Origin: Promethearchaeota archaeon | GTDB lineage: Archaea; Asgardarchaeota; Lokiarchaeia; Sigyniarchaeales; SOKP01 | Direction: 5' to 3' | Length of the DNA: 64,000 nt | Assembly: GCA_016839555.1 (NCBI GenBank) | Contig: JAEOUA010000010.1 | Coordinates: 320,001-384,000 of the forward strand | Shown here: positions 35,629-43,686 of the stretch, in pieces | How the letters are laid out: each line of letters begins with the position of its first letter | Numbering within the stretch: the stretch's first letter is position 1 | Program-made: the position numbers and the translations under genes | Notes under the pieces: generated by a model | The model's database searches: none | Seen by the model: only the letters and a program-made list of their open reading frames with translations | Told to the model about the DNA's origin: nothing

Positions 35629-38178
35629 CTATTTCAATTTTTTGAAGCTCGTGGGCTGAAATTCTTTACCAACATTTTTTTTAAAAACTTCGCTGAACAT
35701 TTCTTTTCTATTTGAAGTTGCTATATCTGGTATGCGTTTTCTCTTTAAAGATTTTCTATATTTTCTTAATTTTCTAATGGCAGGGGGATATTTTAAATAT
35801 ACACGATATAAGATTACATATCCCGCGAGCCCAACCCCAGCAGCAACTCCAGCAACAATTGAAAAAATTAACCATCTTTGTGAAGCCTTGATTTCTTCTT
35901 GTATTCGTAAATAATTTGAATAAAACGATAAAAATAAGGGGAGATAATTAACACTCGGTGCAATTTCAAATTTGATATCAAATTGTTTATTTATATGATA
36001 ACTTGAATTACCATAAACCGTTATTGTAGTGTTTCCTGATGTCAAAGTACTTGTATCAACTATTAATAAGTATACCCCTGGTTCATCCATCGTTAAGTTT
36101 TTGGCAGAATAATTAGAATATACGAATGCATAATCAGTAGTTATAGGAGTATCATCCACCTTATCTTTAAATTCTATGTTTATAACAATGGTACCCGTAA
36201 CGTTTTCAAAATAATAAACTCCATCAACTTCAACATCATAATTTTGGGGTATAAAATCTGCATCATGTATAACTGTAAATTTTCTTGAAATAAGTCCAGT
36301 TTCATTCAATCCAAAGTTATTAAATGAATTATTCCAAGCTACAGCTACTTCATACTCCCCAAATTCATACTCAGGACCACTTGTTGGAATGGAAATAGGA
36401 TTAAAATAGACATTACCATCATTCTCCACATTCTTATATTGGGATTTCCAAGTTGTACCGTTCGGAAATCGAACCCATAGATATGCTTGGGTTTGATTCA
36501 AATAACTTTCCACTACTTCAGTTTTCGTGATTTTTGCGGTAATATTAAGAGTATCTCCGCTAAGAACTGTAGAGTTCTCAACCCAACCTCCAAAATAGTC
36601 ATTATAAAATTTCAGATCCTTATAGTAATTCGGTGATACCCCTTTAATTAGGAAAAATCCAGTACTTTCGCTATAAATTGTGCTTACAGGAATATCTAAT
36701 AATCCAGCTGTAGAATTATAACAGTCTCCTAAGATATTATTTATAGAATCTGTGGGGGTATATACTTCCGTTATATTCACATCCTCGGGAAATGAAATTG
36801 TTAAATTAGTTTCTTCGTAATCAGCAGGAAGCAATATATATGCATATGTGAGCCAATTTACTAATCCCCCATCCTCAACCTCAAAATTTGTCCCAGGATT
36901 AAATGTCTCTTTATTCCAAGTAGATTCAGGTTGATCTTTTCTCATAAAAAGATTGATATCAGTAGCAAACTCAATTTTATAAGAACTGTTATCAGTTACT
37001 CCAAAATGACTTGAAGTGAAGGAAGGAAAATTCCAAACATAAGAACTTGAAAACTCAACAAGAATTTTATCTCCACTCCATGTTCCGACATCACTTGAAT
37101 TCAATTCTTTATAGCCTTTCCCCCAATCTAAATCGACTATTTGTGAATTATTTAGCTTTAAATCTATTTGGGTTGGTTTAACTTCGGCTTTAGGTATTAA
37201 TTTAATATTATCTAAAAATAACTGTTGAAATTCTATATCCGAAAAACCGGAGGAATAGCTTGCAGATGCGGAATTATATTCTAAGGCAGCACTTATATCT
37301 ATTTGTGAACCGTTGAGTGGATCTGAGAAAATTGATGAAACATTTGTCCATAATCCCATTGGTATATTAAAAGTCTCCCATTCCGTTTCACCATATCCTT
37401 GAAGTGTGTAAATACCGATACTATAAATCTTTTGATTATTTAATGTAATTGTTAATTCCCAAGAATTGAAATTTGTAACATGATAAGGATTTACATCAAA
37501 TTGCAATTCACAATCTATTAATATTCCTCTTTCAATAATAATTGAAGTATTCCACATACATTTATCACCTTCATTATATCTATACCAATCGTGTGGTTCA
37601 TCATCAATAAATTGACCATCCATTCTTAATTCTATACAATCATGTCCAACTATATTATCCTCATAATTTCCTGACATATCATTATTATTACCAATATCTA
37701 TTTCGGAAAATGTCCAATTTTGATATTGATTTTCAATATATTCGCTATCATCTTCTCCAGGATTAGTTCCGTTATCAGCGCCATAATGAAATGAACCATT
37801 ATTCCAATTCTTTATATCATATAAATTATAAATATTTGATGCAAGTCTATAACCTTCCCAGCTATTTAAAGGCATTTCCAAAGTATCAGTTGTACCATTT
37901 GTAAAACTTAGATCAGAAAAGGATTCTGTAGCATTCGCATAATGCGTGATATTCCATGCAGCTCCAAACCCGCTATAACTGACACTGCCATCATCAAAAG
38001 TTAGACCCTGGGATTTCACATTATTTCCAATATTAAAAAGATTGTAATTATTATCATTATCATTAGAAAATAGGAATTCCTGCGAAGAAATACTTAGGAA
38101 TAGTGAACTCAATAAAAATGTTGTCGATAATGCGATGACAAATAAGATTCTCTTATTTTTTTTTCGTTTGATTTTCAT
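35629..38178 (-). CDS. Large membrane-anchored surface glycoprotein with conserved basic tail
   Basis: Signal-like N-terminus, many NxS/T sequons, C-terminal TM then YLKYPPAIRKLRKYRKSLKR. Start at 38178 has GGTG upstream; the track start is 38211. Confidence 0.8.
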   Translation of the reverse strand: MKIKRKKNKRILFVIALSTTFLLSSLFLSISSQEFLFSNDNDNNYNLFNIGNNVKSQGLTFDDGSVSYSGFGAAWNITHYANATESFSDLSFTNGTTDTLEMPLNSWEGYRLASNIYNLYDIKNWNNGSFHYGADNGTNPGEDDSEYIENQYQNWTFSEIDIGNNNDMSGNYEDNIVGHDCIELRMDGQFIDDEPHDWYRYNEGDKCMWNTSIIIERGILIDCELQFDVNPYHVTNFNSWELTITLNNQKIYSIGIYTLQGYGETEWETFNIPMGLWTNVSSIFSDPLNGSQIDISAALEYNSASASYSSGFSDIEFQQLFLDNIKLIPKAEVKPTQIDLKLNNSQIVDLDWGKGYKELNSSDVGTWSGDKILVEFSSSYVWNFPSFTSSHFGVTDNSSYKIEFATDINLFMRKDQPESTWNKETFNPGTNFEVEDGGLVNWLTYAYILLPADYEETNLTISFPEDVNITEVYTPTDSINNILGDCYNSTAGLLDIPVSTIYSESTGFFLIKGVSPNYYKDLKFYNDYFGGWVENSTVLSGDTLNITAKITKTEVVESYLNQTQAYLWVRFPNGTTWKSQYKNVENDGNVYFNPISIPTSGPEYEFGEYEVAVAWNNSFNNFGLNETGLISRKFTVIHDADFIPQNYDVEVDGVYYFENVTGTIVINIEFKDKVDDTPITTDYAFVYSNYSAKNLTMDEPGVYLLIVDTSTLTSGNTTITVYGNSSYHINKQFDIKFEIAPSVNYLPLFLSFYSNYLRIQEEIKASQRWLIFSIVAGVAAGVGLAGYVILYRVYLKYPPAIRKLRKYRKSLKRKRIPDIATSNRKEMFSEVFKKNVGKEFQPTSFKKLK

Positions 38179-38458
38179 TTTAACACCGATATATTTATGT
38201 AAATATTTCAATTATAGAAATAATTTATTTGATTTTTTTAGATTTCATTTATAATTATAAGAAAATACCTTTTTTATTATAAATTTTTTCTACCTTAGGA
38301 TATAATTTAAGATTTCTAATTCAAATCTTTGGTTTGAGAACTAATTTTATGATTACAAGAGGTTGCTTTTGATTATTTTTTGCTTTATAACACAAGATAA
38401 ATAAAATAATTATAGAAAAAACTATTAAAATTTAATTTTAGTTAAAATTTTTTTATTT

Positions 38459-41725: not shown

Positions 41726-42054
41726 TAAAAATCTTTAAAATTGTTATTGATATAATTTAATTCCAGAAAGCAAAATGCTCTCTTTAATTTAAAAATATTG
41801 CAATTAAGATTAAGTAATATATTGTAATTTAAATATAAATTTATTTTGAAATAGAATCAAATAAGTAATTAAAAGCTTTTCAAAAATTATTTTATTAAAA
41901 ATTATTATACCTTAAAATTTTAAATTGAGTGTTTAATCGTTTTTTTGATTTTCACTGATTTAATGAATTTAATTTTGAACGTTTTAATCAAAAATAGAAT
42001 AATGATTAATATTCTCTTATTTCAGAAAAAATAATTAAGGAAAAAAAGAATTAT

Positions 42055-43686
42055 TTACATTATTTCTTTAAAGGCCTTCTCTCGACTTGAAATTTGAATG
42101 CTTCTCGGCATTTTTCCCCTTTTCAAACTTTTACGATATTTTCTTAGTTTTCTTATGGGCTTAGGATATCTAAAAATAGTATAATATAATACCAAATAAG
42201 TTCCTAATCCTCCTGCGATTGCGGCCGCTCCAATGAACAATGCAGCGTAAATCCATGGTTCAGTAGTTTCTTCAGAAATTCCTATATCTGGATACAATTG
42301 TATATAAGAGATCTGCAGATAGACGTTATCAAGAGAGATTGTAATATTTTCAGTTAAATCGAAGGTATTTGCCAGGTATAATTGAATTGAAAGGGTAATA
42401 TTTTGATCTTTGGGTATTATACTTGTTAAATCAAACCCAGCAGAAATAAACTCATCCGAATAGATATATTCACTTAATAATATTGGCTTACCATATTCAT
42501 TATTGTTGATAAACATTCGAAGCTCAGAATATTCTGAAGCGCTTGTCCAATTTCTATCCAATTTATAATCGAATCTAAGATCGGCTCCAGTAATAATGAC
42601 ATTCTCACCACTTATCATGCCTCCTTCTTGTCCCCAAGATATTGTTGTTTCTTTATCAATAATTTTTTCATAGGTAAATGTAAAATTAATACCGGTAAAA
42701 CATAATAAAGACCAGGTATCAGCATCTTGAGGGAAATTATCTTCACAATTAATATAAATACCTAATGAAAGTGTAAAGTTCTTATAATTCTGTTTTAATG
42801 CTGTATTTATATCAGATATTAACTGATCTTCTGATTTGGCTGTCATAATGCCATCAGTTATTTCATCTATTTCTGGATTATCTTGTCCAAGTTTTGATGT
42901 TTGATTGTATATTACTTCCTCAGAATTAAAATATTCCATATCTGATATTAAAACAAAAAATCGGACAAAATCTCCTGTTTGAGCTTCAAAATCTCCGGGA
43001 TCTATATTTTGATCACTTAAAACATCCACAGCACCATTATAAGAAGGAGGTTGACTTGAAGGAGTAGCTTGAACAGAAGCATTAAAACTTACTGTTAGAG
43101 CAGCAGATGTTATTTTATAATCAATCATATTTTGATCCAATGAAATTGTATAATTCCAATTTATAACAGCAATTTGATCTGCTGGTTGAGTATCACTCCA
43201 ATAATGAGAAGCCCATAATCCTCGAGAATCATTACCATAATTATCGGGATATATATCGGAAGCACTAACATTACTATTTGGGTCATAATAAGCCCATTTT
43301 GGTTCTGAATCAACTTGCCAACCTGTTTGATTTAAAGGATTCGTTAAATCCCATGATTTATTGAAGATATGCTGTTCGCCTATTACTCTTATATTTGCAT
43401 TTCCATCTTTAATAAAACCTACAACATCATCGAGTGGACTATCGGTCTCATTTGTTAAAAACCAGAATTGTTCCGTATCAAATTGAGAATTTCGAAGCCA
43501 TTGTTGGATAAATGGGATTTCCCCACTCGTCTTAAGATTATTATTACTAAGAAGTGTAGTATAGTTTTGGGTAATGAATATGTTATCATTATTATTCTCC
43601 GTATTTTGTTTTATTAAAATTGGTATCGTTAATGAAAGAATAAAGCAAATTGTAAGTATTAGTTTTAGCTTAGATTTTTTTTTCAT
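42055..43686 (-). CDS. Single-unit surface glycoprotein, paralog of the 1088-aa protein's units
   Basis: WLRNSQF, CEDN, TM+RYPKPIRKLRKYRKSLKR...REKAF. Confidence 0.8.
   Translation of the reverse strand: MKKKSKLKLILTICFILSLTIPILIKQNTENNNDNIFITQNYTTLLSNNNLKTSGEIPFIQQWLRNSQFDTEQFWFLTNETDSPLDDVVGFIKDGNANIRVIGEQHIFNKSWDLTNPLNQTGWQVDSEPKWAYYDPNSNVSASDIYPDNYGNDSRGLWASHYWSDTQPADQIAVINWNYTISLDQNMIDYKITSAALTVSFNASVQATPSSQPPSYNGAVDVLSDQNIDPGDFEAQTGDFVRFFVLISDMEYFNSEEVIYNQTSKLGQDNPEIDEITDGIMTAKSEDQLISDINTALKQNYKNFTLSLGIYINCEDNFPQDADTWSLLCFTGINFTFTYEKIIDKETTISWGQEGGMISGENVIITGADLRFDYKLDRNWTSASEYSELRMFINNNEYGKPILLSEYIYSDEFISAGFDLTSIIPKDQNITLSIQLYLANTFDLTENITISLDNVYLQISYIQLYPDIGISEETTEPWIYAALFIGAAAIAGGLGTYLVLYYTIFRYPKPIRKLRKYRKSLKRGKMPRSIQISSREKAFKEIM

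What the first reader, a model, noticed from the sequence alone, without database searches (positions are those of the whole stretch)
35629..43686. Surface-protein array with a near-invariant cytoplasmic tail (4 copies in 3 genes)
Seen directly after each anchor TM: YRVYLKYPPAIRKLRKYRKSLKRKRIP..NRKEMF; YSRVLRFPKPIRKLKKYRKSLKKSKIP..NREKSF; YFKVLRFPEPIRKLRKYRKSLKKEKIP..SREHAF; YTIFRYPKPIRKLRKYRKSLKRGKMP..SREKAF. The ectodomains are far more divergent, and the 860-aa one lacks the CEDN motif. Conservation of P, I, L, Y, S and F goes beyond the positive-inside rule, and the tail differs from the IPGY Loki-CTERM at 54.3 kb. Inference: an undescribed sorting or docking signal linking variable glycosylated ectodomains to a common cytoplasmic adaptor or cytoskeleton, conceptually like adhesion-receptor tails.
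Basis: partly seen in the sequence, partly recalled or inferred. Interest (0 to 1): 0.78.

Follow-up and report, generated by a model that had tools for sequence, protein, structure and literature searches.

The report
Asgard surface-protein tail with longin partner
Three neighbouring surface-glycoprotein genes of a Lokiarchaeial (Asgard) archaeon share a short, strongly selected basic segment just inside the membrane; across the phylum this segment travels with, and in one genome is fused to, a eukaryote-like longin/winged-helix protein, which points to an undescribed link between cell surface and cytoplasm.

Summary
Genes A (35629-38211), B (38459-41725, two units) and C (42055-43686) carry four copies of TM-[FY]PxPIRKL[RK]KYRKSLK.

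The similarity is not gene conversion: synonymous codons in the tail are as scrambled as chance, and tail identity is 62-83% against 34-37% for the ectodomains. Pfam and NCBIfam hold no matching family. Loki-CTERM matches only the separate 212-aa protein at 53.7 kb.

The motif is a juxtamembrane module: TM end, YPxP kink, then a +7/+8 amphipathic helix. It matches 377 protein clusters at E<=0.001 and occurs in 38 of 41 genomes of the order. Weaker forms occur in other Asgard families.

Homologues of the divergent neighbour (44000-45241) lie beside tail genes:
- 58 of 58 informative class-1 loci have the same divergent layout.
- Two diverged tail classes each have their own paralogue immediately downstream.
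- One genome has five predicted tail-partner fusions; two were verified.

The neighbour folds as an acidic longin domain plus two winged helices.

Most likely (about 0.55) the tail docks this protein at the membrane. Binding is inferred, not shown. A link to the cytoskeleton has no support.

Earlier notes of this scan describe the same system on other genomes. I found no paper on it.

The parts
35629..38211 (-). Gene A, 860 aa. N-terminal hydrophobic segment (aa 21-43), A-type ectodomain, TM (aa 779-804), conserved cytoplasmic module.
   Evidence: Orthologues of the head are usually 1150-1700 aa, with extra stalk repeats.
35677..35838 (-). Tail module of A (aa 792-845): last 16 TM residues, YPPA kink, IRKLRKYRKSLKRKR helix, P...NRKEMF.
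   Evidence: E 4e-22 to profile A2.
38459..41725 (-). Gene B, 1088 aa. Two complete CEDN-type units in one ORF, with four hydrophobic segments (aa 6-36, 447-476, 550-578, 1019-1050) and two tail modules.
   Evidence: The two-unit architecture recurs in 17 of 170 tail proteins examined and in other genera (G019:C30, G007:C9).
40169..40330 (-). Tail module of unit B1 (aa 466-519).
38462..38620 (-). Tail module of unit B2 (aa 1036-1088).
42055..43686 (-). Gene C, 543 aa. Signal/anchor helix, two CBM-like beta-sandwich domains (aa 53-343, 347-466), TM helix 478-505, kink 506-508, basic helix 509-522, short helix 535-542.
   Evidence: AF2 model, pLDDT 82.7. Fold matches to CBM4/27/61/70-type modules, Z 10-12.
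42058..42216 (-). Tail module of C (aa 491-543).
43687..43999 (.). 313-bp divergent intergenic region between gene C and the longin/winged-helix gene.
   Evidence: The same head-to-head layout occurs in 58 of 58 related loci with at least 2 kb of upstream flank. Repeats found here are uninformative in AT-rich DNA.
44000..45241 (+). Candidate docking partner, 413 aa. Acidic longin domain (1-108), two long helices (109-164), two winged-helix domains (166-260, 296-375).
   Evidence: AF2 pLDDT 88.6, pTM 0.80. Longin matches at Z 11-12.5 (FLCN, Lst4, C9orf72-SMCR8, Loki Roadblock-Longin, GATOR1). No Pfam or NCBIfam hit. Synteny.
45271..47250 (+). 659-aa protein that follows the partner gene. It is a conserved third component of the class-1 cluster.
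   Evidence: A homologue follows the partner within 13-54 nt, or overlaps it slightly, in 80 of 80 loci. No Pfam, NCBIfam or PDB sequence hit. The 'TrmB-like' label comes from earlier notes and is unverified.
47342..49636 (+). 764-aa paralogue of the 659-aa protein.

Best explanation
The shared segment is a conserved juxtamembrane cytoplasmic module of a family of Asgard surface glycoproteins. Its parts, in order, are:
- the cytoplasmic end of the anchor helix, with an invariant Tyr;
- a [YF]-P-x-P helix break;
- a 14-residue amphipathic helix of net charge +7/+8 (IRKLRKYRKSLKK);
- in this class, a second short motif (P...R..AF...Y).

The ectodomains are CBM-like beta-sandwich heads, sometimes carried on Ig-like stalks.

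I propose that the module is the docking site that holds a co-encoded, acidic longin plus tandem winged-helix protein (44000-45241) at the inner face of the membrane. In this way the outer ligand-binding domain is coupled to a cytoplasmic effector.

Shown here: the conservation, the selection, the predicted structure, and the genetic coupling, which includes fusion. Inferred: physical binding of the tail to the longin domain, and any signalling output.
For: 1. Selection, not homogenisation. In the 30-residue tail core, the number of identical codons at identical residues is 10, 6 and 10, against 11.8, 9.0 and 9.0 expected from codon usage. The ectodomain behaves the same way. Amino-acid identity is 62-83% in the tail against 34-37% in the ectodomain. 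Ser is encoded TCT/TCG/AGT/AGT.

2. Depth of conservation. Homologues of C at 33-40% identity keep the motif. Profile A2 finds 377 clusters at E<=1e-3 among 1.84 billion proteins, nearly all with the match near the C-terminus. It is found in 38 of 41 genomes of the order. Recognisable forms occur in other families of the phylum.

3. Structure. AF2 gives TM helix 478-505, a break at YPKP, and helix 509-522. Mean hydrophobic moment is 0.71, z +2.2 against shuffles, charge +7.

4. Coupling to the partner.
- 62 of 98 tail hits in 40 relatives lie within 10 kb of a partner-family hit, against about 1.6% by chance. Most of the rest sit on contigs that carry no partner-family hit.
- 58 of 58 class-1 loci with enough flank have the tail gene divergent from the partner.
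- Three tail classes each pair with their own partner clade. In classes 2 and 3 the partner ATG often abuts the tail gene's stop codon.
- The pair also occurs in two other families of the phylum (f7 and f25).
- Families with the tail are a subset of those with the partner. The large families lack both: f9 0/28 against 1/28, f18 0/11 against 0/11, f26 0/21 against 1/21.

5. Rosetta stone. In G234:C9 five tandem open frames of about 2655-2678 aa each hold a full-length partner match with no internal stop. For two of them I verified the order giant ectodomain, TM, class-3 tail, about 45-aa linker, full partner (E 7e-84 and 1.6e-87).

6. Complementarity. The partner's longin domain has median net charge -6 to -9 in all three classes. 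Longin folds are known peptide and GTPase binders; for example, AP2 sigma with a dileucine peptide (2jkr) matches at Z 9.2.
Against: - No binding test was possible. No multimer prediction is on hand.
- Synteny and co-diversification are also what one expects if the pair is simply inherited as a unit for another reason, for example if the winged-helix protein regulates the neighbouring genes.
- In the fused proteins the tail motif is retained although tethering is already covalent. The helix may therefore have a role of its own, such as membrane or lipid binding.
- 73 of 120 partner-family hits in relatives have no detected tail within 10 kb. Two distant paralogues in this genome have no tail-bearing neighbour.
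- In class 1 the 659/764-aa proteins are as tightly syntenic as the longin protein, so they could be the binder instead.
Confidence: 0.55

Rival explanations
1. The module is only a membrane-interface element. It would be a positive-inside topogenic signal plus an in-plane amphipathic helix that binds anionic lipids and stabilises very large ectodomains in the membrane. The longin protein would work with these proteins in some other way, or not at all.
For: High hydrophobic moment, charge +7/+8, and a position directly after the TM. The motif is retained in proteins already fused to the partner.
Against: - The positive-inside rule needs charge, not an invariant Pro and Tyr, fixed spacing, and a second motif (P...R..AF...Y) conserved at 33-40% overall identity.
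- The motif occurs on only one protein family per genome, 1-8 copies.
- Tail variants track partner clades.
Confidence: 0.17
2. The neighbouring longin/winged-helix protein, together with the 659/764-aa proteins, is a DNA-binding regulator of the surface-protein genes. Conserved synteny would then reflect regulation, and the tail's own binder would be something else.
For: The divergent head-to-head layout sharing a 313-bp intergenic region is typical of a regulator and its target. There are two winged-helix domains, and wH1 of class 1 is basic (median +5).
Against: - Classes 2 and 3 place the partner immediately downstream with abutting stop and start codons. This is usual for stoichiometric partners.
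- The fusions tether the whole partner to the membrane.
- The proteins are acidic overall (pI about 5-5.6), and wH1 is neutral in classes 2 and 3.
Confidence: 0.12
3. The module is a C-terminal sorting or processing signal of the archaeosortase or Loki-CTERM kind.
For: It lies at the C-terminus, next to a TM helix and a basic cluster. The genome does use Loki-CTERM.
Against: - The signature lies on the cytoplasmic side of the TM, whereas exosortase-type signals lie on the outer side.
- There is no NCBIfam hit.
- In relatives it is followed by up to hundreds of residues, or by a whole fused domain.
- It also occurs internally, in B1.
Confidence: 0.03
4. The tail similarity is a by-product of recent duplication or gene conversion within the array.
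For: The genes are tandem paralogues.
Against: Synonymous sites are saturated. The same motif occurs in unrelated head families and across the phylum.
Confidence: 0.01

Closest known systems
Cargo-tail linear motifs read by longin-fold adaptor subunits (e.g. the [DE]xxxL[LI] motif bound by AP2 sigma2-alpha; VAMP7 or Sec22 longin-peptide complexes)
   Same: A short conserved motif in the cytoplasmic tail of a single-pass surface protein, and a partner with a longin fold. AP2 sigma 2jkr matches at Z 9.2 and VAMP7 longin at Z 10.7.
   Different: - The motif is a membrane-adjacent polybasic amphipathic helix, not an acidic dileucine or YxxPhi motif.
- The partner is a single longin plus two winged-helix protein, not a heterotetramer.
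- No vesicle coat is implied, and binding is not shown.
Eukaryotic longin-domain GTPase regulators: FLCN-FNIP (Lst7-Lst4), NPRL2/NPRL3 of GATOR1, C9orf72-SMCR8; and the NPRL2-like longin proteins of Asgard archaea (10.1101/2020.10.19.343400)
   Same: These are the best structural matches of the partner's N-domain (Z 11-12.5). They share the plan of a longin domain followed by further C-terminal domains. Asgard genomes are known to be rich in such proteins.
   Different: - No DENN domain.
- No Pfam NPR2 or NPR3 hit.
- No GTPase gene in the window's cluster.
- The papers I read describe no pairing with surface proteins.
Loki-CTERM (NF033507) and other archaeosortase-type C-terminal sorting domains
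   Same: A C-terminal TM helix with a basic stretch on surface proteins of the same organism.
   Different: In those domains the signature (IPGY) lies outside the membrane and the basic cluster is short. A, B and C do not match the model; only the 212-aa protein at 53741-54379 does.
Polybasic juxtamembrane segments of eukaryotic receptors (EGFR JM-A, syntaxin-1A, CD3-epsilon) - from my own knowledge
   Same: A basic, amphipathic stretch directly after a single TM helix that lies on the inner leaflet and also binds proteins.
   Different: Unrelated sequences and lineage. Here the segment is genetically tied to one dedicated partner.
Bitopic one-component sensors (ToxR/CadC type) and anti-sigma/ECF pairs - from my own knowledge
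   Same: An outer sensor domain, a single TM helix, and a winged-helix-bearing cytoplasmic part, either co-encoded or fused.
   Different: Opposite topology: there the wHTH is N-terminal. They have no longin domain, and DNA binding is not shown here.

Membership tests
Loki-CTERM sorting domain (NCBIfam NF033507) | Match to the 27-position model (IPGY-type motif, TM, short basic end) at 19.9 bits or more | tested here: not met
   A, B and C give no hit at E<=1. The 212-aa protein at 53741-54379 scores 24.5 bits.
Archaeosortase/exosortase-type C-terminal signals (PGF-CTERM, PEF-CTERM, PEP-CTERM and others) | Signature motif on the outer side of the TM, at the extreme C-terminus | tested here: not met
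   The conserved motif follows the TM on the basic, cytoplasmic side. It occurs internally in B1, and ahead of long extensions or a fused domain in relatives. No NCBIfam hit.
Longin domain superfamily (partner, aa 1-108 plus helices) | beta-beta-alpha-beta-beta-beta-alpha fold | tested here: met
   AF2 secondary-structure order E2-14, E20-31, H48-59, E69-76, E82-90, E96-104, H109-135. FLCN Z 12.5 (144 aligned, 3.4 A), Lst4 Z 12.1, Loki Roadblock-Longin Z 11.7.
NPRL2/NPRL3 (GATOR1) family | Sequence match to the Pfam NPR2 or NPR3 models | tested here: not met
   No Pfam family at E<=0.1.
NPRL2/NPRL3 (GATOR1) family | Longin domain plus NPRL-specific C-terminal domain; GAP partner of Rag GTPases | tested here: inconclusive
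   Only the longin part aligns to a GATOR1 chain (8fw5_B, Z 11.0, model 1-165). The C-terminal half matches ArsR/Phr-type winged helices (Z 7-8). No GTPase is encoded in the window's cluster.
Carbohydrate-binding-module-like beta-sandwich (ectodomain of C) | Jelly-roll beta-sandwich fold | tested here: met
   4d0q_A Z 11.9, 8zqf_A Z 11.5, 4bj0_A Z 11.5; dozens of CBMs at Z 9-11. This is fold level only.
Carbohydrate-binding-module-like beta-sandwich (ectodomain of C) | Sugar-binding residues or measured glycan binding | not testable with these tools
   No ligand-site analysis was possible. No Pfam CBM hit.
TrmB family (659- and 764-aa neighbours) | Match to the TrmB wHTH or TrmB C-terminal domain models | tested here: inconclusive
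   No Pfam hit at E<=0.1 for the 659-aa protein. No NCBIfam hit for either protein. No PDB sequence hit.
Eukaryotic AP sorting motifs (YxxPhi, [DE]xxxL[LI]) | Presence and conservation of the motif in the tail | tested here: not met
   No acidic dileucine. The Tyr of KYRK is Phe, Leu, Met, Ile or Val in other members and classes.

The most novel reading that the evidence does not exclude
The tail and the longin/winged-helix protein form an archaeal receptor-adaptor system. Glycan-binding surface proteins would recruit a longin-domain regulator of the FLCN/NPRL type to the inner membrane face through a dedicated juxtamembrane motif, and so couple what the cell touches to small-GTPase or transcriptional output. 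That would be a prokaryotic forerunner of eukaryotic cargo-tail/adaptor and membrane-bound longin-GTPase modules. It would also give molecular identity to the unexplained surface proteins seen on Lokiarchaeia.
Probability: 0.15. Interest if true: 0.9.

Novelty: new variant of a known kind. Interest (0 to 1): 0.72.

Why it matters
Cultured Lokiarchaeia lack an ordered S-layer and instead show numerous unidentified surface proteins (PMC9834061). Asgard genomes also hold many longin-domain 'eukaryotic signature proteins' with no assigned partners (10.1101/2020.10.19.343400).

A conserved, sometimes fused pairing of surface glycoproteins with a longin/winged-helix protein, marked by a 30-residue motif, gives both groups a concrete hypothesis that can be tested with peptides. 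It also provides a simple sequence tag for finding members of this surface-protein family. If binding is confirmed, it would be the first defined cytoplasmic-tail/adaptor pair in the closest archaeal relatives of eukaryotes.

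Tried and rejected
- **P0023 as a fusion.** P0023 has a CEDN head, a TM and a cytoplasmic domain of about 240 aa in place of the motif. BLASTP and hhalign against the partner profile (probability 0.1) show no homology. The ESM Atlas gave only unnamed Asgard clusters. I rejected it as evidence.
- **Search for longer (fused) relatives of the 413-aa protein.** The protein database gave nothing. The fusions were found only by genome search.
- **The search for related loci with the three-class alignment** failed because the alignment has no conserved stretch. 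I redid it with class 1 only.
- **Foldseek against PDB for the partner** gave only weak E-values (best 6e-3). The fold assignment rests on the VIA-align Z-scores.
- **Single-linkage clustering of ectodomains** merged everything through shared stalk repeats and truncated fragments. Head types were therefore assigned by direct BLAST.
- **Repeats in the divergent intergenic region** were uninformative in AT-rich DNA.
- **Four literature searches** found no description of the motif or of the pairing.
- **An RNA-level explanation** of the conservation is rejected because synonymous positions vary freely.

Full report
**Observation**

Three genes lie on the - strand: A (35629-38211, 860 aa), B (38459-41725, 1088 aa) and C (42055-43686, 543 aa). 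The core [FY]PxPIRKL[RK]KYRKSLK occurs four times. The aligned TM plus tail has 19 invariant columns. An HMM of the four copies, run against all six-frame ORFs of the 3.74-Mb assembly, finds only these three ORFs.

B has four hydrophobic segments and two full units. B1, B2 and C ectodomains are 32-35% identical. A has no detectable similarity to them. Sequon density is 26-30 per 1000 aa, several-fold above the cytoplasmic neighbours.

**Chance and gene conversion**

In the 30-residue core, identical residues use the same codon 10, 6 and 10 times in the three pairs. Codon usage alone predicts 11.8, 9.0 and 9.0. The ectodomain behaves the same way. The invariant Ser is TCT, TCG, AGT and AGT; Ile and Leu codons also differ. 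So the copies are old, and the tail (62-83% identity against 34-37% in the ectodomain) is held by selection on the protein.

**Anatomy**

AF2 on C with 36 homologues (pLDDT 82.7) gives:
- a signal or anchor helix;
- two beta-sandwich domains;
- a TM helix at 478-505;
- a break at Y-P-K-P;
- a helix at 509-522;
- a loop and a short terminal helix.

The 14-residue helix has mean hydrophobic moment 0.71 (z +2.2 against shuffles) and net charge about +7. Across 33 sequences the invariant residues are a Tyr in the last TM turn and the first Pro. R22 and R45 are nearly invariant. The ectodomain matches carbohydrate-binding modules at fold level (Z 10-12).

**Is it catalogued?**

Pfam and NCBIfam give nothing for A, B or C. 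NF033507 (Loki-CTERM) matches only the 212-aa protein at 53741-54379. Four full-text searches found no description. InterPro member databases other than these two could not be checked.

**Distribution**

- Homologues of C at 33-40% identity keep the motif.
- The 54-position profile A2 finds 377 representative clusters at E<=1e-3 (186 at E<=1e-10) among 1.84 billion proteins.
- The match lies near the C-terminus, with a median of 40 residues after it. 17 of 170 proteins carry two copies, like gene B.
- Heads are CEDN-type (94 of 144 units) or A-type (25 of 144). Most of the rest are N-truncated fragments of Ig-like stalk repeats.
- The motif is in 38 of 41 genomes of the order and in 156 of 301 genomes sampled from the phylum.
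- Diverged but recognisable forms occur in other families, for example YPPIIRKLRKL, SIPKLVRKLNKM and SIPWMVRKMRKM.
- Nearest relatives are named Promethearchaeota or Lokiarchaeota MAGs.

**The neighbour**

The divergently transcribed gene at 44000-45241 has no Pfam or NCBIfam family. AF2 (pLDDT 88.6) shows a longin domain, two long helices and two winged helices. The longin part matches FLCN (Z 12.5), Lst4 (12.1), C9orf72-SMCR8 (11.9), a Lokiarchaeial Roadblock-Longin protein (11.7), GATOR1 (11.0), VAMP7 (10.7) and AP2 sigma (9.2). The winged helices match ArsR/Phr-type regulators at Z 7-8. The longin domain is acidic in all classes, with median charge -6 to -9.

**Coupling of tail genes and the longin protein**

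1. In 40 relatives, 62 of 98 tail hits lie within 10 kb of a partner-family hit, against about 1.6% expected. Most of the others sit on contigs that carry no partner-family hit.
2. In 80 loci from GTDB species genomes, fetched with the class-1 partner, the 659/764-type gene follows the partner in 80 of 80. A tail ORF lies upstream on the opposite strand in 58 of 58 loci with at least 2 kb of upstream flank, and nowhere else. There are 1-5 motifs per array.
3. There are three classes:
   - class 1: YPKPVRKVRKYRK, with a partner of 413-431 aa, divergent in the window's own family;
   - class 2: YPPMVRKIRKLRKKIRKGKK, with a partner of about 375 aa;
   - class 3: IPKFVK..RKMKK.IK followed by YPSK...G..W..LG.SL, with a partner of about 370 aa.

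   In classes 2 and 3 the partner is immediately downstream, often with its ATG abutting the stop codon. This genome has a class-3 pair on contig C12.
4. Pairs also occur in two other families of the phylum.
5. Families with the tail are a subset of those with the partner. The large families lack both.
6. In G234:C9, five tandem open frames of about 2655-2678 aa each hold a full-length partner match with no internal stop. For two of them I confirmed that ectodomain, TM, class-3 tail, a linker of about 45 aa and the whole partner (E 7e-84 and 1.6e-87) lie in one continuous frame with no N.

**Mechanism**

The best reading is that the juxtamembrane helix docks the acidic longin/winged-helix protein at the membrane, coupling a glycan-binding-like head to a cytoplasmic effector. 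My confidence is about 0.55.

- Shown: conservation, selection, predicted helix-kink-helix, fold of the partner, genetic coupling and fusion.
- Inferred: the physical contact, which face binds, and the output.

The rivals are a purely lipid-binding or topogenic helix (0.17), a regulator-target relationship with another binder for the tail (0.12), a sortase-type signal (0.03) and gene conversion (0.01). Retention of the motif in the fused proteins means the helix may have a role beyond recruitment. In class 1 the 659/764-aa proteins remain alternative binders. Nothing here supports a link to the cytoskeleton.

**Comparison and novelty**

The system works like a receptor tail with a dedicated adaptor. 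The partner's fold places it with eukaryotic longin-domain GTPase regulators and adaptor subunits. It is not a sequence member of NPRL2/3, has no DENN domain, and has no GTPase in its cluster.

Published surveys note abundant NPRL2-like longin proteins in Asgard genomes (10.1101/2020.10.19.343400) and unidentified surface proteins on Lokiarchaeia (PMC9834061). Neither describes this pairing.

Earlier AI notes of this scan describe the same system on other genomes. I re-derived the main claims independently and verified the fusion claim.

**Limits**

- Signal-peptide cleavage, real glycosylation, topology and binding are untested.
- Taxon names of the other families are not available to me.
- Structure jobs were exhausted before the 659-aa protein or the fused cytoplasmic part could be folded.

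Noticed in passing
window 53741-54379 (+): The 212-aa surface protein ending in IPGY, a TM and RKK is a true Loki-CTERM protein (NF033507, 24.5 bits against a cut-off of 19.9). The genome therefore uses at least two different C-terminal anchoring signatures.
   Followed up: partly
G000:C12:221862-230084 (own genome, another contig): A class-3 pair: a 1551-aa surface protein with a diverged tail (IPEFVKKARNIKKQIK) directly followed by a 372-aa longin/winged-helix paralogue. Two genes upstream lies a 311-aa protein with an Arf/Rag-like P-loop (GLDNAGKT) and a C-terminal part that looks roadblock-like by eye (no domain search was run on it). This is a possible GTPase link.
   Followed up: partly
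L165:294-8270 and L166:277-8241 (G234:C9): Tandem ORFs of about 2655-2678 aa (five by the genome search; these two verified) in which surface protein, tail motif and the complete longin/winged-helix partner are one reading frame. The partner's start Met is retained internally.
   Followed up: yes
window 45271-47250 and 47342-49636 (+): Two paralogous 659- and 764-aa proteins with shared CxxC...H N-termini. A homologue follows the longin gene in 80 of 80 related loci. No Pfam, NCBIfam or PDB sequence match. Earlier notes call them TrmB-like, which I could not verify.
   Followed up: partly
P0023 (732 aa; found as a homologue of gene C): A CEDN-type head and TM followed by a cytoplasmic domain of about 240 aa instead of the basic motif. 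This domain resembles free-standing Asgard proteins of 215-236 aa in the ESM Atlas, but not the longin partner.
   Followed up: partly
window 38459-41725 (-), aa about 520-580 of B: Between the two units lie a linker of about 35 aa and a second signal-like hydrophobic segment. The two-unit form is conserved in other genera. Whether it is cleaved into two proteins is unknown.
   Followed up: partly
P0017-P0022 and many proteins: Longer family members insert tandem Ig-like repeats of about 95 aa (pattern LNG..K...I.V..G..LNITV.Y) between the head and the TM. The window's A, B and C lack them.
   Followed up: no
window 32556-34776 and 54550-57532 (+): By eye, the cluster is flanked by fatty-acid beta-oxidation-like genes: 3-hydroxyacyl-CoA dehydrogenase-like, enoyl-CoA hydratase-like, acyl-CoA dehydrogenase-like, and two ETF-like subunits. 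No domain search was run, and they appear unrelated to the finding.
   Followed up: no
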